Source: Eubacteriales bacterium (lineage in GTDB: Bacteria; Bacillota; Clostridia; Oscillospirales; JAAYXM01). Taken from it: 53,714 bases of DNA. The notes beneath the pieces were generated by a model, which saw nothing but the letters and a program-made list of their open reading frames with translations, did not search any database and was not told the DNA's origin. Made by a program: the position numbers and the translations under genes. Location: positions 1 to 53,714 of the forward strand of contig JAZQSI010000021.1 of assembly GCA_045629985.1 (NCBI GenBank), written 5' to 3'. This document shows, one piece after another, positions 3,616-53,714 of the stretch (the first letter of the stretch is position 1; every line of letters begins with the position of its first letter).

Positions 3616-3685
3616 AAAAAAGCAGTTCTTTCACATAAAGTATTTTCAGACGCAAGTCAAATACAAGAAAGAAAGGTTTTTACAA

Positions 3686-4324
3686 ATGAAAAAAGAAAAC
3701 AGAAAAAAACTTTTACCTGCACTTCTCTTCCTCGTAGCATTTATCCTTTGGACAACTCTCCTTTGTTTTGTCGACACTAAAGCAATAGGTCCTTGCAACT
3801 CTACCGTTGGCTTCTCAACGCTCAATCTTTTTATCCATAATATTACCGGGGTTCACATGCCTCTATACACCCTCACGGACTGGTTAGGCTTAATCCCGGT
3901 AGGTCTTATGTTCGTATTTGCTTTTATCGGCCTCTTCCAAATGATAAATCGAAAAAGCTTTCTCAAAGTAGATAAGAGTATTATTTCACTTGGTGTTTTT
4001 TATATAATAGTACTTATTCTCTATCTCTTTTTTGAAGAATTTATCATAAATTACAGACCAATATTAATAAGCGGACGACTCGAAGCCTCCTACCCATCAT
4101 CAACAACAATGCTTGTATTATGTATTATTCCTACCTCAATAATGAATTTTAACAGACTAGTTGAAAACAAAGCACTCAGACAAAGTATCAACATAACACT
4201 GACCGCGTTTATGATTTTTATGGTAGTCACAAGGCTGTTTTCAGGCGTTCATTGGTTTTCTGACATCGTTGGAGGCATCCTTCTGAGCGCAGCTCTTGTA
4301 AAGTTATATTCCTTAACATATTAA
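3686..4324 (+). CDS. PAP2-family (phosphatidic acid phosphatase type 2 / undecaprenyl-PP phosphatase-like) membrane protein
   Basis: The C-terminal motif SGVHWFSDIVGG matches the PAP2 SGH...D signature. There are 5-6 TM segments, an upstream SYPSSTT motif, and a GAAAGG RBS. Confidence 0.7.
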   Translation: MKKENRKKLLPALLFLVAFILWTTLLCFVDTKAIGPCNSTVGFSTLNLFIHNITGVHMPLYTLTDWLGLIPVGLMFVFAFIGLFQMINRKSFLKVDKSIISLGVFYIIVLILYLFFEEFIINYRPILISGRLEASYPSSTTMLVLCIIPTSIMNFNRLVENKALRQSINITLTAFMIFMVVTRLFSGVHWFSDIVGGILLSAALVKLYSLTY

Positions 4325-22013: not shown

Positions 22014-23863
22014 TTCTTGCAGCCCTCCAAAATTGTTTTACAAATACCCTCTGCATTCAATCCGAGCGAAGAATACAGAGCATCCAGACTTCCGTGAGTT
22101 GTGAAAGCATCACCCGTATTAATCGGAACGATTCTGCAATTCATACCTCTCTCCGCAGAAATTGCCGAAATCTGCTGAAATACAGAGCCCTTTGCTACCA
22201 CATCCTCAACAACGATCACTTTCGAAAAACGCGAAAGCGCACCGCAGATTGCATCAACATCAAGCGGTTTTATTGAGTTGAGCTTCAGAACTGCAGCAGA
22301 TACACCCGACACTTCCGCACTCTCGCACGCTGAAAGAACATTGTTTATAAGCATTCCGTATGTGATTATGCAGACGTCTTTGCCGTCTCTGACAAGACTG
22401 CTCAAAGCATTGTCTGCAAACGAATTTTCCTTGTAACCACCCTCAGAACCACGCGGATACCTGAGCGAAACAGGTCCGTCTGCATCCTTTGCAAACTTAA
22501 GCATTGAGCGAAGCTCTGAAAAACTTGACGGCGCTAGTATCTTCATACCAGGCACAGACGAGAGATACGCAACATCAAACACACCGTGATGCGTTTCTCC
22601 GTCCTCACCGACAAGGCCTGCCCTATCAACACCGAAGATAATATGCTGTTTTGAAATTGCAACATCGTGAATGAGCATATCATATGCTCTCTGCAAGAAC
22701 GTGGAATAAATCGCGCACACAGGAAGCATTCCTTGAGCCGCAAGTCCTGCGCCCATTGCGACTGCGTGTTCCTCTGCTATTGCGACATCAAAGAAGCGGT
22801 TCGGGAACTCCTCGGCAAAATCCGAAAGCCCGACCCCCGAAGTCATCGCAGCGGTAATCGCGCAGATTCGCCCATCCTCGCGCGCCAAAGACACCAATTC
22901 TTCACCAAAAACATCGGAGAAAGTCTGCTTCTTGCCCGAAACAGGAAGACCTGTTTCCACATCAAACTTGCCGACACCGTGATAATCCTGCGGGCTCGTC
23001 TCTGAAGGTTCATAACCCTTACCTTTTTTCGTTGTAAGATGGATTACGACAGGACGGTTAAGATCCTTCGCAAGCTCAAAAAGGTAAATCATATATTTAA
23101 TATCGTGACCGTCAGCAGGCCCAAGATACGTAAATCCCATTTCCTCAAAGAAGAGCGACGGAATAAGTGCTGTTTTAATCGCATTTTTTACATTATGTAT
23201 TCCGTTATCAAGAGCAATTCCGAACTTTGTCTTCTTGATTATTCTTCTGTAAACATCCTTGAAACGTAGATACTTCTTCTTCACGCGGAGCTTTGCAAGA
23301 TAATTTGTCATCGCGCCGACGTTCTTTGCAATCGACATTTCATTGTCGTTGAGAATAACTATAAGCGGCTCTTTGCTCTGCCCCGCATCACCAAGCGCTT
23401 CATACGCCATTCCACCCGTAAACGCACCGTCACCAATAACGGAAATTACCGAGAAGTCTTTTTCAGAGAGTGTCCTTGCCCTTGCCATACCGAGCGCAAC
23501 AGAAACAGAATTTGAAGCATGCCCCGTAACACAGGCATCGTGAATACTTTCTGACGGGCGAAGAAACCCCGATAAACCGCCAAAAGTCCTCAAGCCGTCA
23601 AACCCATCGCGGCGACCGGTTAGAATTTTGTGCACATATGATTGATGACCGACATCGAACACAAGTCGGTCAACTGAAGTATCAAAAACTTTATGAAGAG
23701 CAAGAGTAAGCTCCACAATCCCAAGATTGGAAGCGAGGTGTCCTCCTGTTTTTGAAACGTTCTGTATCAGAAACTCACGGATTTCTCCGGCAAGTTCATA
23801 CAGTTCAAAAACAGAAAGAGCCGATATATCACTGTGATTTTTGATTTTATCCAAAAGCCCCAT
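22010..23863 (-). CDS. dxs: 1-deoxy-D-xylulose-5-phosphate synthase
   Basis: GGHLASNLGIVELT, DVGHQSY.HKILTGR, thiamine-PP motif IGDGAFTGGMAYEAL, and DRAGLVGEDGETHHG. 617 aa. Confidence 0.95.
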   Translation of the reverse strand: MGLLDKIKNHSDISALSVFELYELAGEIREFLIQNVSKTGGHLASNLGIVELTLALHKVFDTSVDRLVFDVGHQSYVHKILTGRRDGFDGLRTFGGLSGFLRPSESIHDACVTGHASNSVSVALGMARARTLSEKDFSVISVIGDGAFTGGMAYEALGDAGQSKEPLIVILNDNEMSIAKNVGAMTNYLAKLRVKKKYLRFKDVYRRIIKKTKFGIALDNGIHNVKNAIKTALIPSLFFEEMGFTYLGPADGHDIKYMIYLFELAKDLNRPVVIHLTTKKGKGYEPSETSPQDYHGVGKFDVETGLPVSGKKQTFSDVFGEELVSLAREDGRICAITAAMTSGVGLSDFAEEFPNRFFDVAIAEEHAVAMGAGLAAQGMLPVCAIYSTFLQRAYDMLIHDVAISKQHIIFGVDRAGLVGEDGETHHGVFDVAYLSSVPGMKILAPSSFSELRSMLKFAKDADGPVSLRYPRGSEGGYKENSFADNALSSLVRDGKDVCIITYGMLINNVLSACESAEVSGVSAAVLKLNSIKPLDVDAICGALSRFSKVIVVEDVVAKGSVFQQISAISAERGMNCRIVPINTGDAFTTHGSLDALYSSLGLNAEGICKTILEGCKN

Positions 23864-23886
23864 TTACTCTATCTCCACAAAACAAG

Positions 23887-24468
23887 CTATTTCTTTACTT
23901 TAAAAAATCTTATAGTCTTTGCCAGAAAAAAGACAATATCATTGCTCTTTGTAATTGCAAACCCCTTGCCGAAAGCCTTGCCGCCAACCGTTACACCCGC
24001 AACAAACCCGGTTATAACAAGTGACATAAGAAGTGCATTCGTTCCTGAAAGCGGCAAAGATGCAATTATAATCGCGGCAGTCGATCCACTCATAATGCCG
24101 CAGATGTCACCTATTACGTCATTGCATATACTTGAAACCTTTTCTGCGTTCTTGACAAGCCAGAGTGCTTCTTTTGCACCTTTGACACGTTTTGATGACA
24201 TCGCATTGAAAGGTTTTTCATCCGCGGTGGTGGTTGCCACGCCGAATATATCAAAAATGATACCAAGCAGGATAAACCCCGCCAATATAAAAAACGCCGG
24301 AACAACGTTTACATTTGAAAGCGCAGTTTCTGACACTGCATTGAAAACAACCGAAAGAAAGAAACTCCCGAACAGTATCGTCAATGACCACTTGACGGGT
24401 GAATTCTTTGTTTTTTTAGGACTTTTACTGTGTACATTTTCAGAAGAGCCCGTACTGCCGTCGTTCAA
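23887..24468 (-). CDS. oapA: Small polytopic membrane protein directly downstream of the large ncRNA; OapA (OLE-associated protein A) candidate
   Basis: 193 aa and about 4 TM helices. TTG start at 24468 lies 8 nt after a perfect GGAGG (24481-24477). It sits 23 nt upstream of dxs and immediately 3' of the structured RNA, which is the published ole-oapA arrangement. The longer + strand ORF 23834-24529 is S/T/P-rich antisense noise. Confidence 0.65.
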   Translation of the reverse strand: MNDGSTGSSENVHSKSPKKTKNSPVKWSLTILFGSFFLSVVFNAVSETALSNVNVVPAFFILAGFILLGIIFDIFGVATTTADEKPFNAMSSKRVKGAKEALWLVKNAEKVSSICNDVIGDICGIMSGSTAAIIIASLPLSGTNALLMSLVITGFVAGVTVGGKAFGKGFAITKSNDIVFFLAKTIRFFKVKK

Positions 24469-24489
24469 CTCTAATACCTCCAGAAAAAT

Positions 24490-25100
24490 ATGTAAATGGG
24501 CAGCAGAAAAAGGTAATCTTGCGGCTTAGGTCCGGTCTGCTTTCCACATAGCCTACCCTTTGTTGCCAATGAGGGCGGTTTCCCTTTAAAAGCTATGCCG
24601 TTGCGTCGCCTACAACGGCACCGGATCGCCACTTAGTCCGCACTGCAAATCTTCTTCTGCACAACAGCCTAGATGATTTCCATAACAGTCACGCCGATTC
24701 TTAGCCTCTTTTGCAATAGAGGTTTCAAAAAGCAATAGGAAAGATGTTTTGGCCGAAACAATCTCACCTTCGTTCTTTTATTCACCAATACCACTCAAGG
24801 CAGGCTACTCTGCACACAGCACAAGGCTTATGCCAGGCACCGCATTGCAGGTTTAATCCCGGTACGTACATAGTCCGTCAATTTAGCAATGTATAGGCGT
24901 ATGCACATACTCGGGTCTCCACGGCAGCAGGGTCGGGAATACATGCCATTGTAAGCCGCCCTAAAGCCTTAACCCCCAGCACTCACCCCAATCTGGGCGA
25001 GAGAAGCAAGCACCAGGGACTTCATCGATATGCCCTTCTACGGATTTTTAGGCCCGTCCTGGGAACCGACAGATCTGACTAGGATACTGCACCCATATTA
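24490..25100 (-). ncRNA. ole: Large structured ncRNA, most likely OLE (ornate, large, extremophilic) RNA; ends approximate
   Basis: A 686-nt ORF-free gap that is conspicuously G+C-rich compared with all other spacers. Local hairpin: 24596-24603 / 24613-24620. Long-range inverted repeats: 24521-24528 / 24952-24959 and 24823-24829 / 24964-24970. An own promoter lies at 25108-25136. The context ispA...[RNA]-small TM protein-dxs-tlyA-nadK-argR-recN matches the described OLE locus. The length of about 600 nt fits OLE. Confidence 0.7.
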
Positions 25101-25107
25101 CTTATAA

Positions 25108-25136
25108 ATTTTATCATATTTTCACAAAAAAATCAA
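25108..25136 (-). promoter_or_regulatory. Candidate sigma-A promoter (extended -10) for the ncRNA
   Basis: Minus strand: TTGATT (25136-25131), 17-nt spacer, TGaTAAAAT (TG 25116-25115; TAAAAT 25113-25108). The predicted start is about 25100. Confidence 0.5.
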
Positions 25137-25154
25137 TATCAGCAAAAATCAGCT

Positions 25155-27878
25155 TCAAATAATTCCCATTCTTACAAAACAGTAATCTTCATTCCAAAGC
25201 AGATTTTCAAGTCCCCAGACCTCAACCGCTCTTTCGTTTTTCCAGATGCAGTTTTCTTTGTAGAATGAACCCGGAGCAACCTGGTACGACTCACCTATCT
25301 CAAGATGATGAGGACCGAGAAGGTTTCTTAAGTTATTCACAAGGGTGACGGTAAGAGTGTGTTTACCGCGTGCCGCAAGCGCACTTAAGTTCACCTCATC
25401 CTTACCCCACAAAAGCGAAACGTCTTTTCCGTCGAGTGAAATGCGTACAACGTTTATTCCCGTGCGTCTGAAGTTTAAGACGGTTGAGTCTCCGATTACA
25501 ATTTCCTTTTCAACGGTAAGTTTTCCGCAGAAAAACGGGAATCCCTGCTCCTGAATATTTGAGAGCTTAATCTCACGCTTCGGCTCGGCGATTGCAAACT
25601 CTCCAAGATAGCGGCACGCACCTCTATCCAGAGGTCTCCACTCGCCGTCCGTCTTTACAGAAAACTCACCTACAAGATAGACCGCTTCGATTTCTATATC
25701 GTAAGAAAGCTTGTTCTTCTCACTTTCAAACTTATATGCACGCTTAAGGTTATTGTAAAATCCTTCGCTCTGGACAAAATCACAGTCAAATGAAATGACA
25801 TTTTCACCGAGTCTCAAATACTTTGCAACTTCAATCCGTTTGAAGCTGTAATCGACAAATGTTCCGCAGACAGTTTTGTCTATCGGTATTCCGTTTATCG
25901 AAATCTCGAACTTTTCAGGACTTTCCGTAACCAGGTGGAGACTTTCAGGAATATAATCACATTTTACGTGATAGTCCTGATGTATCTTCACTGCTCTGCC
26001 AAGCGCATTTGCACGTTCCGGGACATTAAGAACATAGCCGTTTTTCTCCTGGAGAGCACCATCAAAGTAGTAATCACATTTATCAAGAACAAGGCTGTTT
26101 TCAACTTTTCCGGATATCCTGAAGTTTCCATCGGGATAGATGATATCCGGAGAGCAATTTTCTGAAGTTATCAGTTTTGTGCCGTCTTCAACTACAACAA
26201 GACTTCCAAGCGGCTCAAATGTATAGTCCTCAGAGAGCGGGAGAAGTTCTCCGCTGATTATATCAAGGCATCTTCCCTCAACACCGAGACTTGCCTTTTG
26301 TTCTTTGTCCGTACTGTTTACGAAATAGTGAACGGTGCAATCGCCAAACACACGCTTTGCATATGTGATTGAAGGATTATTTATTACAGAATTTTCACAA
26401 AGCTCGTCAGAAGTTACAATCTTACCGCCGTTCTCAGAAAATTCAGAAAGAAGCTTTCTTGTGGAATCAAAAAGCACTTCATCTGATAAAAGTATGACCT
26501 TATCATACTTAAAGTCACCAATGACGATCGCATTGCCATCAACAACTGCATGTCTTTCCATTATGGTTTCATCGCCGAGATGGAATTCAATATGTTTTCC
26601 TTCAAGCGTTCTTATGTTTTCAAGAAGAAGCTCGTTGAGTTCTTCGATTTTGCTCTTATCGCTATCGTTATACATCGTCCATGCAAGGGACATCGGATGA
26701 ATAAGCAAAACTGAAGTTTCTTCCCTGCCCTCATTGAGAATCTTGCCTACCCCCGACATTGAATCGATAAATGTCTTGTAATCATCCCACCACGGCTGTT
26801 GATAGTACATACTCGGCGGATAATCTCTTTTTCTGATACCCTTCATTGAGTACGCCTCAAGATGCTGACACATAAGATTTATGCCTCGAACCATATGCCA
26901 CTCATAAAGAGCCTTGAGCTCCGAAAAGCTGACATTGTTGCCGCAAAGGGCAAAAATCTCAACAAGGACAGCCTCTTTGTTCATCTGCGCACCAACAGAA
27001 CCTACCTGACGTGCTGTGAGGCAGTCAAACATTTTTCTGCCGAGCCAATCGACACCGGGAATATGAAAATATTCGTAATGCGCCATAGCGGCTCCGTTTG
27101 ACGTAATCTGGCCGAAAATATCATCTTCAACTGCAAGGTGACCGGTAAGCTTAAGTCCTCTTTCGCTACACCAATCGTATATATTCTTCATATATGCCGT
27201 TGAAAAGAGATCAGTAACCATCTTCCAGAAATTGAATCTTGTCTCTTTATAGTCACCAACTTCCAGAAAGAGCTCTTCAAGCTTATCTAAAATATTCTCG
27301 CCATATCTTTCTTTGTATTCCTCTTCAAAAACAAAGCTCCACGGGATTCCGTTACGAGAAATCTGCGGCTCATCCGTAAAGAATCCTTCTATCTCATTGC
27401 CGTACTTTTTGTAATAGACATCATATACCTCATCAAGGAAAATGTCTGTTACTTTTTTATCAAGGACATCAACATAAAACGGATTGATGTCGTAGTAGAA
27501 GTAATGCTCTCCGCACTTGCAGATTGCAGTTTCTTTATGGTTTTGTTCAGCCTCCATACGGAGATATTTCTGCTGAAACTCTACACCGCGTTCGTTGATT
27601 TTACCATCTCCGAAACCGCTCGGCCATCCGTTTTCGTCATATGCCCAAGCTTTTATCCCAAGTTCCTTAGCGGTTTCTATCGACGCTGTGACATTATCAA
27701 ACCATTCCTCGCCCATGTATTCGGTAGCAAGGCCTCCGCGCGCATGCATGAAGAAGCCCCCCATTCCACACTCCGCCATAAGGCGAACCTGACGAGAAGT
27801 CTCTTCTGTATTCAATTTGTCATTCCAACTCCAGAACGGAATTGGTCTGAACTTTTGAGAAACAGTTTTAAAATCCAT
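25155..27878 (-). CDS. Large cytoplasmic glycoside-hydrolase-like protein (N-terminal TIM-barrel-like + C-terminal beta-sandwich; GH106-like 'jelly-roll glycosylhydrolase' by recollection)
   Basis: 907 aa with no signal peptide. The N-terminus FRPIPFWSWNDKLNTEE...MAECGMGGFFMHARGGL...EEWFDNV...AKELGIKAWAYDENGWPSGFGDG is a pattern I associate with uncharacterised GH families. The exact family cannot be assigned by eye. The ATG lies 15 nt after the ispA stop. Confidence 0.6.
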   Translation of the reverse strand: MDFKTVSQKFRPIPFWSWNDKLNTEETSRQVRLMAECGMGGFFMHARGGLATEYMGEEWFDNVTASIETAKELGIKAWAYDENGWPSGFGDGKINERGVEFQQKYLRMEAEQNHKETAICKCGEHYFYYDINPFYVDVLDKKVTDIFLDEVYDVYYKKYGNEIEGFFTDEPQISRNGIPWSFVFEEEYKERYGENILDKLEELFLEVGDYKETRFNFWKMVTDLFSTAYMKNIYDWCSERGLKLTGHLAVEDDIFGQITSNGAAMAHYEYFHIPGVDWLGRKMFDCLTARQVGSVGAQMNKEAVLVEIFALCGNNVSFSELKALYEWHMVRGINLMCQHLEAYSMKGIRKRDYPPSMYYQQPWWDDYKTFIDSMSGVGKILNEGREETSVLLIHPMSLAWTMYNDSDKSKIEELNELLLENIRTLEGKHIEFHLGDETIMERHAVVDGNAIVIGDFKYDKVILLSDEVLFDSTRKLLSEFSENGGKIVTSDELCENSVINNPSITYAKRVFGDCTVHYFVNSTDKEQKASLGVEGRCLDIISGELLPLSEDYTFEPLGSLVVVEDGTKLITSENCSPDIIYPDGNFRISGKVENSLVLDKCDYYFDGALQEKNGYVLNVPERANALGRAVKIHQDYHVKCDYIPESLHLVTESPEKFEISINGIPIDKTVCGTFVDYSFKRIEVAKYLRLGENVISFDCDFVQSEGFYNNLKRAYKFESEKNKLSYDIEIEAVYLVGEFSVKTDGEWRPLDRGACRYLGEFAIAEPKREIKLSNIQEQGFPFFCGKLTVEKEIVIGDSTVLNFRRTGINVVRISLDGKDVSLLWGKDEVNLSALAARGKHTLTVTLVNNLRNLLGPHHLEIGESYQVAPGSFYKENCIWKNERAVEVWGLENLLWNEDYCFVRMGII

Positions 27879-27893
27879 CTTAACACCATCAAA

Positions 27894-28769
27894 TCAGTTA
27901 TTTCTTGAAACAAGCATATTTGCAACCCAGATGAGGAATTCACTTTCAGGAAGTTTTTTTACCTCTTCTATTGCATTATCGGTAAGCTCCGAGACCTTTG
28001 CTTTACACTCATCAAGTCCCCAAAGCTTTACGAACGTTGACTTTCCGCTCTCCTCATCGTTACCGACGTCTTTTCCCATTATCTCAGCATCTCCCTCAAC
28101 ATTGAGAATATCATCGCGAATCTGGAATGCAAGTCCTATACTTTCAGCATAAGCTGTTGCCGATGCAATCTGCTCATCAGTTGCCCCTCCGAGGATGCAA
28201 CCCATAACGGCCGCAGCTCTTATAAGAGCACCTGTCTTCATTTCCTGAAGTTTTTTAATCTCATCAGCATTGAGAGTACGGCTCTCTCCCTCCATATCTA
28301 TAATCTGACCGCCAATCATTCCGTCTGCGCCGGAGGACGTGCCAAGATAGCGAAGAGCTTTGAGTGTAACCTCGGGAGCAAAAGTGCTGTTTTCAAGAAC
28401 GTGCTCAAAAGCACGGTTTAGGAGAGCATCTCCTGCAAGTACTGCAACCGCTTCACCGAACATTTTATGGCTCGTGGGGCGGCCACGACGAAGGTCATCG
28501 TCATCCATGCACGGCAAATCATCGTGAATGAGAGAATACGTATGAATCATTTCAAGCGCCACGGCAAACGGCATTGCCTTTTCCGGTGCAACACCAAAGA
28601 CACGCGCAAATTCAAGCACGAGAAGCGGACGTATTCTTTTTCCTCCTGCATTGAGGCTGTATCTCATCGCTTCAAAGACATTGCCGTAAAGACAGTCCTT
28701 TTGCGGAATTGCCTCATCAAGAGCACGATTTATACTGTCCTGGTATTCAGAAAATCTTTTGGCAAGCAT
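27894..28769 (-). CDS. ispA: Farnesyl/geranyl diphosphate synthase (polyprenyl synthetase)
   Basis: First Asp-rich motif LIHDDLPCMDDDDLRRG and second motif FQIRDDILN. It follows xseB as in Bacillus. Confidence 0.92.
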   Translation of the reverse strand: MLAKRFSEYQDSINRALDEAIPQKDCLYGNVFEAMRYSLNAGGKRIRPLLVLEFARVFGVAPEKAMPFAVALEMIHTYSLIHDDLPCMDDDDLRRGRPTSHKMFGEAVAVLAGDALLNRAFEHVLENSTFAPEVTLKALRYLGTSSGADGMIGGQIIDMEGESRTLNADEIKKLQEMKTGALIRAAAVMGCILGGATDEQIASATAYAESIGLAFQIRDDILNVEGDAEIMGKDVGNDEESGKSTFVKLWGLDECKAKVSELTDNAIEEVKKLPESEFLIWVANMLVSRNN

Positions 28770-43992: not shown

Positions 43993-44011
43993 AAAAATCC
44001 CTCCGAAGAGT

Positions 44012-44212
44012 TTAGTCTTCTATCTGTGTTGCAGAAAGGTTTCCGTTTGCAATCTCTTCGATAGCGAGGCTTACCGGCTTATCAGAAAGCTCGATTCTCT
44101 CCTCTTCTGCATACTCTGCAATTTCTCTTGCTCTGCGAGCCGCAAGGTTAACGAGAAGGTATCTTCCGTTTACCTCCTTTAAAAGCTGGCTCATTGACGG
44201 ATATAACATCAT
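44012..44212 (-). CDS. rpoZ: DNA-directed RNA polymerase subunit omega
   Basis: 66 aa. NGRYLLVNLAARRAREI is the omega signature. GGAGG RBS. Confidence 0.9.
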   Translation of the reverse strand: MMLYPSMSQLLKEVNGRYLLVNLAARRAREIAEYAEEERIELSDKPVSLAIEEIANGNLSATQIED

Positions 44213-44231
44213 AGCACTTTTCCTCCAAAGT

Positions 44232-45990: not shown

Positions 45991-46557
45991 TCAGCAACAG
46001 TCACACAAACAATCTGCACACATAAGCCCTGCGCAGCAGTCACACGGTGTGACCATTCCTCCGCCGAATGAGCTTGCACCACCTGATGCACTCATACGGT
46101 TGAGCGCCTCTGCGTATTCGGGGTTATTCGGCTCCATTGAATACGCCTTCTGAAAATACGTTCTCGCGTTGTCGTACCAGCCTTTTCTGAGCATAACGCT
46201 TCCCATAAGGAAGTTCCACTCCGCATCATGTGTCGGGATCTGAGAAAGAAGCTGCTCTGCAAGAAAAATATTATTCTCCGAAATCGCGCGGCGTATTTCA
46301 GCATAACTCGAATTCCCGCTACCACGCGAATATGAACCCGAAGAGGAGCCTGAATAGCTCGATGAAGATGCACGCGAATTCATAATCGAATCATATGCTT
46401 CGTTGATTTCTTTCATCTTCTCCTCCGCGAGGTCTGCAAGCGGATTGTTTATATAGTTGTCCGGGTGATATTTTTTTGCAAGTTCGCGATATGCCCTTTT
46501 CACTTCATCGTTTGATGCCGAACTTGACACACCAAGCACTACGTATGGGTCTTTCAT
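45991..46557 (-). CDS. J-domain protein with Ser/Gly linker, TPR-like segment and C-terminal cysteine string
   Basis: N-terminal J domain [32 protein letters not shown] (HPD tripeptide). Low-complexity [22 protein letters not shown] follows. A TPR-like [26 protein letters not shown] segment is present. The tail is [17 protein letters not shown]. Confidence 0.8.
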
Positions 46558-46560
46558 AAA

Positions 46561-52399: not shown

Positions 52400-53714
52400 T
52401 TGGGTACTAAGTATGTATACCTGTTCTCCGAAGGCAATGGTTCTATGAGAAACCTCCTCGGAGGCAAAGGCGCTAACCTCGCAGAAATGACAAGCCTCGG
52501 AATGCCTGTTCCCCAGGGATTCACTGTTACAACAGAAGCTTGCACACGCTATTACGATGACGGCAAGGTTATCGCTCCCGAAATCGAAGCTGAAATTCTC
52601 GAGCACATGAAGAAACTTGAGGATATCTGCGGAAAGAAGTTCGGTGACACCGAAAATCCGCTCCTCGTTTCTGTTCGTTCAGGTGCTCGTGCATCCATGC
52701 CCGGTATGATGGACACAATCCTCAACCTCGGTCTTAACGAAGACGTTGTCAACGTTATGGCTGCAAAGTCAGGCAATCCGCGTTGGGCTTGGGACTGCTA
52801 CAGAAGATTTATCCAGATGTACTCCGACGTTGTTATGGAAGTCGGCAAGAAGTACTTCGAGCAGCTTATCGACAAGATGAAGGAAGAAAAGGGTGTTACA
52901 TCCGACCTCGACCTCACCGCTGATGACCTCAAGGAACTTGCAAATCAGTTCAAGGCTGAATACAAAAACAAAATCGGTAAGGACTTCCCCTCTGATCCTA
53001 AGGAGCAGTTGATGGGCGCTGTTGAGGCTGTTTTCCGTTCTTGGGACAACCCCAGAGCAAACGTTTACCGTCGTGACAACGATATTCCTTATTCTTGGGG
53101 TACCGCTGTTAATGTTCAGATGATGGCTTTCGGTAACATGGGTGACGATTGCGGTACCGGTGTTGCATTTACCCGTGACCCTGCTACCGGTGAGCGCGGT
53201 CTTATGGGTGAGTTCCTTACCAATGCACAGGGTGAGGACGTTGTTGCAGGTGTTCGTACTCCTATGCCCATCGCTGAGATGGCACAGAAGTTCCCTGCAG
53301 CATTCGAGGAATTCAATAAGGTTTGTGCAATTCTTGAAAATCACTACAGAGATATGCAGGATATGGAGTTCACCGTTGAGGACGGTAAGCTTTACATGCT
53401 CCAGACCCGTAACGGTAAGAGAACCGCTAAGGCTGCTCTTAAGATCGCGTGTGACCTCGTTGACGAGGGCATGATCGATGAGAAGCAGGCAGTTGCAATG
53501 ATCGATCCCCGTAACCTTGACACTCTTCTTCATCCCCAGTTCGACACCAAGGCTCTTAAAGCTGCTACTCCTGCAGGTAAGGGCCTCAGCGCTTCTCCCG
53601 GGGCTGCTTGCGGTAAGGTTGTTTTCAACGCTGAGGATGCAGAGGCTTGGAACAACCGTGGCGAAAAGGTAATCCTTGTTCGTCTTGAAACCTCACCTGA
53701 GGATATCACAGGTA
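52400..53714 (+). CDS. ppdK: Pyruvate, phosphate dikinase, N-terminal ~438 codons (continues beyond window)
   Basis: It is not in the ORF track because it has no stop in the window. Translation from TTG 52400 (AAAGGA 9 nt upstream) gives (M)GTKYVYLFSEGNGSMRNLLGGKGANLAEMTSLGMPVPQGFTVTTEAC..YY, later RDPATGE and MQDMEFTVEDGKLYMLQTRNGKRT (ATP-grasp). The frame was checked at 53390. The minus-strand ORFs 52370-53533 are antisense artefacts. Confidence 0.9.
   Translation, partial: MGTKYVYLFSEGNGSMRNLLGGKGANLAEMTSLGMPVPQGFTVTTEACTRYYDDGKVIAPEIEAEILEHMKKLEDICGKKFGDTENPLLVSVRSGARASMPGMMDTILNLGLNEDVVNVMAAKSGNPRWAWDCYRRFIQMYSDVVMEVGKKYFEQLIDKMKEEKGVTSDLDLTADDLKELANQFKAEYKNKIGKDFPSDPKEQLMGAVEAVFRSWDNPRANVYRRDNDIPYSWGTAVNVQMMAFGNMGDDCGTGVAFTRDPATGERGLMGEFLTNAQGEDVVAGVRTPMPIAEMAQKFPAAFEEFNKVCAILENHYRDMQDMEFTVEDGKLYMLQTRNGKRTAKAALKIACDLVDEGMIDEKQAVAMIDPRNLDTLLHPQFDTKALKAATPAGKGLSASPGAACGKVVFNAEDAEAWNNRGEKVILVRLETSPEDITG

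What the first reader, a model, noticed from the sequence alone, without database searches (positions are those of the whole stretch)
24469..25154. About 600-nt structured ncRNA in the ispA-dxs operon: OLE RNA candidate
This is the only large ORF-free interval in the window (686 nt), and unlike every other spacer here it is visibly G+C-rich. On the minus strand it contains an 8-bp hairpin (24596-24603 / 24613-24620). It also has long-range complementary segments (24521-24528 with 24952-24959, about 420 nt apart; 24823-24829 with 24964-24970). The surrounding minus-strand order nusB-xseA-xseB-ispA ... RNA - small TM protein - dxs-tlyA-nadK-argR-recN is the neighbourhood reported for OLE RNA in anaerobic and extremophilic Firmicutes. 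OLE is one of the largest bacterial ncRNAs of still-unresolved biochemical function, is membrane-localised via OapA, and is usually left unannotated.
Basis: partly seen in the sequence, partly recalled or inferred. Interest (0 to 1): 0.8.

Follow-up and report, generated by a model that had tools for sequence, protein, structure and literature searches.

The report
A confirmed full-length OLE RNA gene
The 686-base gene-free gap holds a complete copy of OLE RNA, an already described large folded bacterial RNA that works at the cell membrane with the protein OapA encoded next to it, so this is a routine new example of a known and still puzzling RNA class, not a new kind of element.

Summary
Rfam's OLE model (RF01071) matches window 25111..24481 on the minus strand over its full length (447.9 bits, threshold 50, E 2.5e-128). 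In my own alignment with 71 OLE RNAs from OapA-linked loci, 87% of consensus pairs form against 40-47% in slid controls, and 121 of 154 pairs show compensatory changes.

The RNA is the full-length type. It carries every motif tied to OLE function in the literature: P1, P2, a 14-bp P3/P3.1 helix, the four dimer-contact loops, the k-turn strands and the OapB-type P13 loop. The downstream gene is a typical OapA, with four TM helices, DxxxD and a CNNM/CorB-like fold.

- The two long-range pairings are chance (58.5% paired against 57.7% shuffled).
- The G+C contrast is not unique to this spacer.
- The gene order omitted a 907-aa GH106-like gene between ispA and OLE. It is a clade-specific passenger insertion.

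Breaks just upstream of OLE are common (45 of 68 loci), and a sigma-70-type promoter directly precedes P1 here and in 28 of 71 loci.

Verdict: a new member of a known kind. Interest is low to moderate.

The parts
24481..25111 (-). OLE RNA gene, extent of the Rfam RF01071 match (model positions 1-616 of 616)
   Evidence: 447.9 bits, E 2.5e-128, not truncated. 154 of 159 model pairs are present and 136 are canonical.
24496..25096 (-). Structured core of OLE from the P1 5' strand to the P1 3' strand (601 nt). P1 is 25096-25090 paired with 24502-24496.
   Evidence: P1 is not in the Rfam structure. I found it by covariation (OLE positions 16-22 with 610-616, 90-97% paired, several pair types per position). 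MFE -210.8 kcal/mol, z -2.03.
25108..25136 (-). Sigma-70-type promoter-like element TTGATT-17 nt-TAAAAT with TG extension. The -10 ends 11 nt before P1.
   Evidence: The same arrangement at >=9/12 matches occurs in 28 of 71 OLE loci, against 4.4 +/- 1.8 in shuffles and 0 in a shifted control. It is a consensus match only; the transcription start was not measured.
25079..25090 (-). P2 5' strand (GCAG..CCUAG), containing the CUAG palindrome. It pairs with 24664-24672.
   Evidence: OLE 22-25 with 445-448 and 29-33 with 440-444, 93-100% paired with covariation at 25/445 and 29/444. PMC12265935 places one OapA site at a palindrome in or near P2.
25063..25077 (-). P3/P3.1 5' strand. It pairs with 24686-24700. 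This is the helix joining domain 1 to domain 2.
   Evidence: 14 bp in the window. Median 14 bp (11-18) in 71 relatives, dG -16.3 against -8.9 kcal/mol for shuffled partners, with visible compensatory changes.
24686..24700 (-). P3/P3.1 3' strand
25039..25058 (-). P4 hairpin with the A-rich loop CCUAAAAAUCC (a dimer contact in the cryo-EM models)
   Evidence: Loop bases are invariant in 72 sequences. The role comes from PMC12265935.
25020..25029 (-). J4a/5 AUCGAUGAAG: the AUCGAU palindrome (P4a OapA site) and the bulged strand of the k-turn (UC-GAU-GA). The partner strand GUUAAGG is at 24967-24973.
   Evidence: C85, G89, A90 and A91 are invariant. The k-turn is defined in PMC9723947.
24973..25019 (-). 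P5/P5.1 long hairpin, 20 bp, loop CGCCCAG
   Evidence: (helix 2, 92% paired, 14 pairs with compensatory change)
24923..24968 (-). P6/P6.1 with loop CAAUGGCAUG (kissing partner of the P5.1 loop of the other monomer)
24858..24915 (-). P7, 17 bp, with a 23-nt loop
   Evidence: (helix 6). Its presence places the RNA in the full-length type.
24810..24850 (-). P8, 13 bp
   Evidence: (helix 7, 94% paired)
24704..24801 (-). P9 long composite stem ending in the palindromic loop CGGCCAA (24749-24755)
   Evidence: (helices 8-12)
24502..24661 (-). 3' domain: P12 series; P13 with GCGA (GNRA) loop at 24606-24609 and bulged U at 24612; P14; P14.1 with GCAA loop; P15
   Evidence: (helices 15-21, 90-99% paired). 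OapB site features come from PMC7936274.
24477..24481 (-). GGAGG ribosome-binding site of oapA, 14 nt after the end of P1
   Evidence: read directly from the sequence
23887..24468 (-). oapA, 193 aa, partner membrane protein
   Evidence: 2726 homologues; invariant C-N-D-V-x-G-D; four TM helices; best PDB matches CorB 7m1t/7m1u and CorC 7cff
25155..27878 (-). Context only: 907-aa GH106-like glycoside hydrolase gene inserted between ispA and OLE

Best explanation
The interval encodes a full-length OLE (ornate, large, extremophilic) RNA of about 600 nt on the minus strand. It sits directly in front of oapA in the chromosome of an uncultured gut Clostridia (Oscillospiraceae-like) bacterium.

Shown here:
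- The sequence and fold match the OLE family.
- The fold is maintained by compensatory evolution.
- Every named functional motif is present.
- oapA is intact and typical.
- A sigma-70-type promoter-like site abuts P1.
- No terminator-like site separates OLE from oapA.

Inferred from published work on H. halodurans and Clostridium OLE RNAs:
1. The RNA is transcribed from its own promoter and/or by read-through, on the same transcript as oapA-dxs-tlyA-nadK-argR-recN.
2. It folds into domain 1 (P3-P9) and domain 2 (P1, P2, P10-P15), joined by the 14-bp P3/P3.1 helix.
3. It dimerises through the P4 A-rich loops, P5.1-P6.1 kissing loops and the palindromic P9 loop.
4. It is bound at the palindromes flanking P3 by dimers of OapA, a CNNM-like putative divalent-cation transporter lacking cytosolic regulatory domains. 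This anchors the RNA in or across the membrane.
5. With OapB (P13 GNRA loop plus bulge) and OapC (k-turn), it forms an RNP that tunes tolerance to Mg2+, cold, alcohol and carbon-source stress. The RNA most likely supplies the regulatory or sensing module that MpfA-type proteins carry as CBS and CorC domains.
For: - Rfam RF01071 full-length hit: 447.9 bits against GA 50.
- 154 of 159 consensus pairs present, 136 canonical.
- Covariation: 87.3% paired against 40-47% slid and 71.7% shuffled; 121 of 154 pairs with double changes; score 0.474 against about 0.11.
- P1, P2 and P3/P3.1 recovered independently of Rfam.
- All conserved loops and junctions located.
- P7 and P8 at full length, so this is not a reduced variant (against PMC11332333).
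- OapA: 2726 homologues, invariant DxxxD, four TM helices, CorB/CorC as best structural matches.
- OLE lies upstream of oapA in nearly all 88 fetched loci, with a median OLE-oapA spacer of 47 nt and 27 nt here.
- Promoter-like site, recurrent at the same position in 28 of 71 loci.
- Close relatives show compensatory changes in P3 (GUCGGUUC/GAAUCGGC against ACCAACUC/GAGUUGGU).
- Mechanistic steps come from PMC12265935, PMC7936274, PMC9723947 and PMC11332333.
Against: - There are no expression, localisation or binding data for this organism.
- oapB and oapC are not in the window, so their presence in the genome is unknown.
- The small hairpin at Rfam positions 424-435 is missing in this clade.
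- The CCUCC anti-SD mimic used by bS21 in H. halodurans is absent.
- The biochemical function of OLE is unresolved in the literature, and the transmembrane model is a proposal.
- The single-sequence folding z-score is only -2.0.
Confidence: 0.93

Rival explanations
1. The sequence is a decaying OLE remnant, a pseudogene no longer under selection after the 907-aa gene insertion cut it off from the ispA operon.
For: The insertion separates OLE from ispA. One small hairpin of the Rfam model is missing and 18 of 154 consensus pairs are non-canonical.
Against: - The match is full length with every invariant column retained.
- The missing hairpin varies in length across the family.
- The relative L085, with the same insertion, keeps OLE at 622 bits and differs by structure-preserving changes.
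- oapA is intact.
- A promoter-like site directly precedes P1.
- Loss of an adjacent ispA is the majority state among OLE loci (45 of 68).
Confidence: 0.03
2. The interval acts mainly in cis as a long structured 5' leader that controls oapA-dxs expression, and not as a stable stand-alone RNA.
For: Only 27 nt separate P1 from the oapA start, and no terminator-like site lies between them. The short spacer is typical (median 47 nt). In H. halodurans the cluster is one polycistronic transcript (PMC12265935).
Against: - No riboswitch or leader family matches.
- The RNA is far larger and more conserved than any known leader.
- Published work shows OLE is abundant, binds OapA, OapB and OapC protein and acts as an RNP.
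- Some loci separate OLE from oapA by 0.4-1.8 kb.
Confidence: 0.05
3. The interval encodes a small protein: the 53-aa ORF at 24471-24632 abutting oapA, or another short ORF.
For: Short ORFs of 41-53 aa exist on the minus strand and one of 50 aa on the plus strand.
Against: The 53-aa frame is stop-free in only 12 of 71 relatives and already has a stop in L088. Substitutions follow base-pair covariation, not codon periodicity.
Confidence: 0.01

Closest known systems
OLE RNA, Rfam RF01071 (Halalkalibacterium halodurans model system; Clostridium acetobutylicum and C. botulinum cryo-EM structures)
   Same: Length, consensus sequence, about 20 covarying helices, P1-P15 architecture, dimer-contact loops, k-turn strands, the P13 GNRA loop with bulged U, and oapA immediately downstream within the xseA-xseB-ispA...dxs-tlyA-nadK-argR-recN cluster.
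   Different: - Host is an uncultured gut Clostridia MAG.
- A GH106-like gene sits between ispA and ole.
- The small hairpin after P2 is absent.
- There is no CCUCC anti-SD mimic in P6.
- The P7 and P8 loops carry 14- and 12-nt insertions relative to the Rfam model.
OLE variant 1 (TANB77) and variant 2 (RF39) of Fernando and Breaker 2024
   Same: Same family, also from uncultured gut Bacillota.
   Different: Those variants have shortened or missing P7, P8 and P9 and often lack the OapB site. The window RNA keeps all of them at full length.
MpfA/CorB/CorC (CNNM-family Mg2+ transporters)
   Same: The OapA transmembrane fold matches the CNNM domain. The literature proposes MpfA as an all-protein functional counterpart of the OLE RNP.
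   Different: OapA has four TM helices, a DxxxD motif and no CBS or CorC domains. A 600-nt RNA takes their place.
Other large ornate bacterial RNAs (GOLLD, ROOL, HEARO, raiA)
   Same: Large, highly structured, homo-oligomeric non-coding RNAs of unresolved function.
   Different: No sequence or structure match here (only RF01071 hits). They are not linked to oapA or to the membrane.

Membership tests
OLE RNA (RF01071) | Covariance-model score above the curated gathering threshold over the full model | tested here: met
   447.9 bits against 50, model positions 1-616 of 616, E 2.5e-128
OLE RNA (RF01071) | About 600 nt with a high share of near-invariant nucleotides | tested here: met
   601 nt from P1 to P1. 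In 72 sequences more than 100 columns are invariant and about 130 more are at least 90% conserved; the window carries the invariant base at every invariant column.
OLE RNA (RF01071) | Many helices supported by covariation | tested here: met
   21 helices, 121 of 154 pairs with compensatory change, 87.3% paired against 40-47% slid. P1, P2 and P3 were found as well.
OLE RNA (RF01071) | oapA as the immediate downstream gene | tested here: met
   oapA starts 27 nt after P1
OLE RNA (RF01071) | Host in Bacillota, typically an anaerobe or extremophile | tested here: met
   Indirect. The nearest OapA and neighbouring proteins come from Oscillospiraceae and Clostridia gut MAGs. There is no rRNA or tRNA in the window for direct placement.
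OLE RNA (RF01071) | Full-length type: P7, P8 and P9 present and OapB site at P13 | tested here: met
   P7 17 bp, P8 13 bp, P9 composite 35 bp, P13 with GCGA loop and bulged U two nucleotides before the closing G (PMC11332333, PMC7936274)
OLE RNA (RF01071) | Dimer-contact loops (P4 A-rich, P5.1/P6.1, palindromic P9) and a P3/P3.1 helix of about 12-14 bp | tested here: met
   All motifs are present. P3/P3.1 is 14 bp. Dimerisation itself was not tested.
OLE RNA (RF01071) | k-turn strands for OapC (UC, 3-nt bulge, GA, opposite AAGG) | tested here: met
   AUCGAUGAAG at OLE 83-92 and GUUAAGG at 139-145. Protein binding is not testable here.
OLE RNA (RF01071) | Abundant stable transcript localised to the membrane by OapA, with stress phenotypes on deletion | not testable with these tools
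   Needs RNA-seq or Northern blotting, imaging and genetics
OLE RNA (RF01071) | oapB and oapC genes in the same genome | not testable with these tools
   No KOW or L7Ae protein appeared among the ORFs from 14.9-53.7 kb that I scanned; the genes at 0-14.9 kb and 16.2-17.2 kb were not scanned. The rest of the genome is not available.
OapA | Four transmembrane helices | tested here: met
   AF2 model, pLDDT 78, helices 23-51, 55-81, 108-137 and 143-173
OapA | DxxxD motif, absent from true CNNM domains | tested here: met
   D117-V-I-G-D121 within an invariant C-N-D-V-x-G-D in 31 sequences (PMC11332333)
OapA | CNNM-like fold without CBS or CorC domains | tested here: met
   Foldseek top hits 7m1t, 7m1u (probability 1.00) and 7cff (probability 0.96). 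The Pfam CNNM match is below threshold at 19.4 bits. The protein is 193 aa in total.
GH106 alpha-L-rhamnosidase (for the inserted 907-aa gene) | Match to PF17132 or to a solved GH106 enzyme | tested here: inconclusive
   The window protein has no Pfam hit. NCBIfam gives 23 bits against a cut-off of 1300. Many homologues carry only a faint PF17132 hit. The profile hits 6q2f at E 0.012 over 83 residues.

The most novel reading that the evidence does not exclude
OLE is made as a primary transcript whose 5' end coincides with P1, from a promoter at a fixed distance (28 of 71 loci). It stays physically joined to the oapA message 27-50 nt downstream. Co-translational membrane insertion of OapA would then drag the nascent OLE 3' domain to the insertion machinery. 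This would be the delivery route by which P3 and domain 2 reach or cross the membrane. A weaker alternative is that the GH106-like enzyme inserted next to ole in this clade is functionally tied to an OLE role in sensing cell-wall glycans.
Probability: 0.12. Interest if true: 0.6.

Novelty: new member of a known kind. Interest (0 to 1): 0.25.

Why it matters
OLE is one of the largest conserved bacterial non-coding RNAs without a known biochemical function, and recent models make it a candidate integral-membrane RNA. This instance adds no new principle. It does show that:
- Annotation pipelines still leave a 600-nt conserved RNA as an empty spacer.
- The ole-oapA-dxs unit stays intact when upstream synteny is broken.
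- A promoter abutting P1 is recurrent.
- The proposed membrane-spanning helix is held at about 14 bp by compensatory evolution across gut Clostridia.

These points are useful constraints for people working on OLE. They are not a discovery.

Tried and rejected
1. Rejected: they are not in the consensus and pair no more often than shuffles.
2. A hidden small protein in the interval. Rejected.
3. Other RNA families in the window or in the other G+C-rich spacers. None found, and no tRNA.
4. The 907-aa insertion as an assembly error or a mobile element. Rejected: a second assembly has the same order (L085), an independent ENA assembly of the same species (L081) has the 907-aa gene upstream of OLE as well, and there are no flanking direct or inverted repeats.
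5. The insertion as a functional OLE partner. Unsupported: homologues at 61-62% identity lie in polysaccharide-utilisation loci with no OLE, and no other OLE locus carries it.
6. An OLE-proximal promoter as compensation for losing the adjacent ispA. Rejected (9/13 against 17/27, Fisher p = 1).
7. Identifying the species. An exact look-up of the 907-aa protein failed when the stop codon was included. The cluster look-up gave no names.
8. Sequence search of OapA and of the 907-aa protein against the PDB. Nothing useful came from single sequences.
9. oapB and oapC in the window. Not found among the ORFs scanned.

Full report
**Observation**

The interval 24469-25154 is real. It lies between the TTG start of a 193-aa minus-strand gene (23887-24468) and the stop of a 907-aa minus-strand ORF (25155-27878). 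At 686 nt it is the largest spacer in the window; the next largest is 276 nt.

Its G+C content is 46.6% (48.3% for the RNA itself), against 43.6% for the window and a mean of 32.9% for the other spacers. Three other spacers reach 42-49%, so the contrast is real but not unique.

As a class they carry no information:
- The interval holds 10 complementary 7-mer pairs and 3 complementary 8-mer pairs.
- Shuffles give 13.0 +/- 4.7 and 3.4 +/- 2.4.

**Identity**

Rfam's OLE model RF01071 is the only family reaching threshold in the whole window. It matches 25111..24481 on the minus strand at 447.9 bits (gathering score 50), E 2.5e-128, covering model positions 1-616 of 616 without truncation. When the consensus structure is transferred to the sequence, 154 of 159 model pairs are present and 136 are canonical.

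**Independent test of the fold**

I fetched genomic loci around OapA homologues. nhmmer found OLE-like sequence upstream of oapA in nearly all of them. I then aligned the window RNA with 71 complete relatives (alignment A2). Results on that alignment:
- The Rfam structure forms standard pairs in 87.3% of cells, against 71.7% for column shuffles and 40-47% when partners are slid by 1-3 columns.
- 121 of 154 pairs show changes on both sides.
- The covariation score is 0.474, against 0.09-0.13 for the slid controls.

They are not in the consensus.

**Features beyond the Rfam model**

The current literature model adds helices that the older Rfam structure lacks. A covariation scan recovered three of them (window coordinate = 25112 minus OLE position):
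- P1 joins the two ends (OLE 16-22 with 610-616).
- P2 pairs 22-25 with 445-448 and 29-33 with 440-444.
- P3/P3.1 pairs 35-37 with 424-426 and 42-49 with 412-419.

A per-sequence duplex test gives 14 bp for P3/P3.1 in the window. The median is 14 bp (range 11-18) in 71 relatives, at -16.3 kcal/mol against -8.9 for shuffled partners, with plain compensatory changes among close relatives. Lyon and Breaker (PMC12265935) argue that about 14 bp would span the hydrophobic core of a bilayer, and that P3 joins domain 1 (P3-P9) to domain 2.

The window RNA also carries every other named motif:
- the P4 loop CCUAAAAAUCC
- the P5.1 loop CGCCCAG and the P6.1 loop CAAUGGCAUG
- the palindromic P9 loop CGGCCAA
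- the CUAG and AUCGAU palindromes assigned to OapA binding
- the k-turn strands UC-GAU-GA and AAGG
- a P13 hairpin with a GCGA tetraloop and a bulged U in the same register as H. halodurans U498
- a GCAA loop on P14.1

P7 (17 bp), P8 (13 bp) and P9 are full length. This is therefore the full-length type and not reduced variant 1 or 2 of Fernando and Breaker.

Differences from the model system are minor:
- The small variable hairpin at Rfam positions 424-435 is absent in this clade.
- The P7 and P8 loops carry insertions.
- The CCUCC anti-Shine-Dalgarno mimic that binds bS21 in H. halodurans is absent here, and is present in only 2 of 72 sequences.

**The partner protein**

The downstream 193-aa protein has 2726 homologues at E <= 0.001. 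In a 31-sequence alignment it carries an invariant C-N-D-V-x-G-D, which is the DxxxD motif that distinguishes OapA from CNNM domains. An AlphaFold2 model (pLDDT 78) has four transmembrane helices. Its best PDB matches are the CNNM-family Mg2+ transporters MtCorB (7m1t, 7m1u) and CorC (7cff). This reproduces the published comparison for H. halodurans OapA. The GGAGG site of oapA lies 14 nt after P1 and the start codon 27 nt after it. Across loci the median spacer is 47 nt.

**Neighbourhood**

The minus-strand order is priA, def, fmt, Zn-peptidase, rsmB, rlmN, PP2C phosphatase, PASTA kinase, rsgA, an unknown gene, amidase, radA, nusB, xseA, xseB, ispA, a 907-aa gene, OLE, oapA, dxs, tlyA, nadK, argR, recN.

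- It has no Pfam domain itself.
- It belongs to a large family whose members carry faint PF17132 (GH106) hits.
- A profile of the family touches the solved GH106 rhamnosidase 6q2f only weakly (E 0.012).
- Its N-terminus shows no signal peptide.

The same insertion occurs in a relative with 88% identical OapA (L085). It is absent in relatives at 66-76% identity, where ispA abuts OLE. Homologues at 61-62% identity sit in polysaccharide-utilisation loci without OLE. No repeats flank the insertion. I read it as a clade-specific passenger insertion.

Such breaks are common. Of 68 OLE loci with enough upstream sequence:
- 23 have ispA directly upstream.
- 11 have ispA more than 250 nt away.
- 34 have no ispA upstream.

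The downstream block is almost always kept.

**Transcription signals**

A sigma-70-type match (TTGATT, 17 nt, TAAAAT, with TG) lies at 25136..25108, and its -10 ends 11 nt before P1. A match of at least 9 of 12 in that position occurs in 28 of 71 loci, against 4.4 +/- 1.8 in shuffles and 0 in a control shifted by 60 nt. It does not depend on whether ispA is adjacent. No terminator-like site lies between OLE and oapA. These are consensus matches, not measured transcription starts.

**Mechanism**

Shown here are family membership, a selected fold, intact motifs and an intact partner gene.

Inferred from PMC12265935, PMC7936274, PMC9723947 and PMC11332333: the RNA dimerises, is held at or across the membrane by OapA, recruits OapB and OapC, and acts as the regulatory part of a CNNM-like cation-homeostasis and stress device. 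Its exact chemistry is unknown to the field.

**Rivals**

- A decaying remnant is unlikely given the full-length match and compensatory change within the clade.
- A purely cis-acting leader is not excluded but has little support.
- A hidden small protein is rejected.

**Verdict**

The element is a new member of a known kind, with low to moderate interest.

Noticed in passing
window 25155-27878 (-): A 907-aa cytoplasmic GH106-like glycoside hydrolase gene sits between ispA and OLE. It is present only in the window's narrow clade. Its homologues elsewhere lie in polysaccharide-utilisation loci.
   Followed up: yes
71 OLE loci (alignment A2), 3-20 nt upstream of P1; window 25108-25136: Sigma-70-type promoter matches pile up directly in front of P1 (28 of 71 loci against 4.4 expected). 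This suggests that OLE often has its own promoter whose start coincides with the structured core.
   Followed up: partly
L001-L088, upstream flank of OLE: The 5' edge of OLE is a frequent synteny breakpoint. Only 23 of 68 loci have ispA directly upstream, while oapA-dxs-tlyA-nadK-argR-recN downstream is nearly always kept.
   Followed up: partly
A2 columns 145-167, e.g. L008:5274-5941, L038, L055: 25 of 72 OLE RNAs (Oscillibacter/Dysosmobacter-like MAGs) carry an extra G+C-rich hairpin in J5/6. It replaces the UUAA of the k-turn 3' strand and could alter or move the OapC site. The window RNA lacks it.
   Followed up: no
window 24914-24940 (P6 3' strand) and A2 columns 200-232: The CCUCC anti-Shine-Dalgarno mimic reported as the bS21 site in H. 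halodurans OLE is absent from the window RNA and occurs in only 2 of 72 relatives. That contact may therefore be lineage-specific.
   Followed up: partly
L057 (OLE 3664-4220, oapA 6001), L002, L055, L027, L040: In a few loci OLE is separated from oapA by 0.4-1.8 kb, or the OLE hit lies several kb away. These are exceptions to the tight ole-oapA coupling.
   Followed up: no
window 43993-44231, 46374-46560, 52607-52768: Three other spacers in my rough ORF map have 42-49% G+C, like the OLE interval. No Rfam family matches them at E <= 1, and the third reads like unassigned coding sequence.
   Followed up: partly
window 23834-24529 (+): A 231-aa plus-strand ORF lies antisense to oapA and overlaps the 3' end of OLE. 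It is almost certainly spurious, because the opposite strand encodes a protein with thousands of homologues.
   Followed up: no
window 27894-27935 (-), 3' end of ispA: TTGCAA inside the last codons of ispA aligns with the -35-like hexamer upstream of OLE in relatives that lack the insertion (L086, L088). In the window this ancestral signal would now face the inserted 907-aa gene.
   Followed up: no
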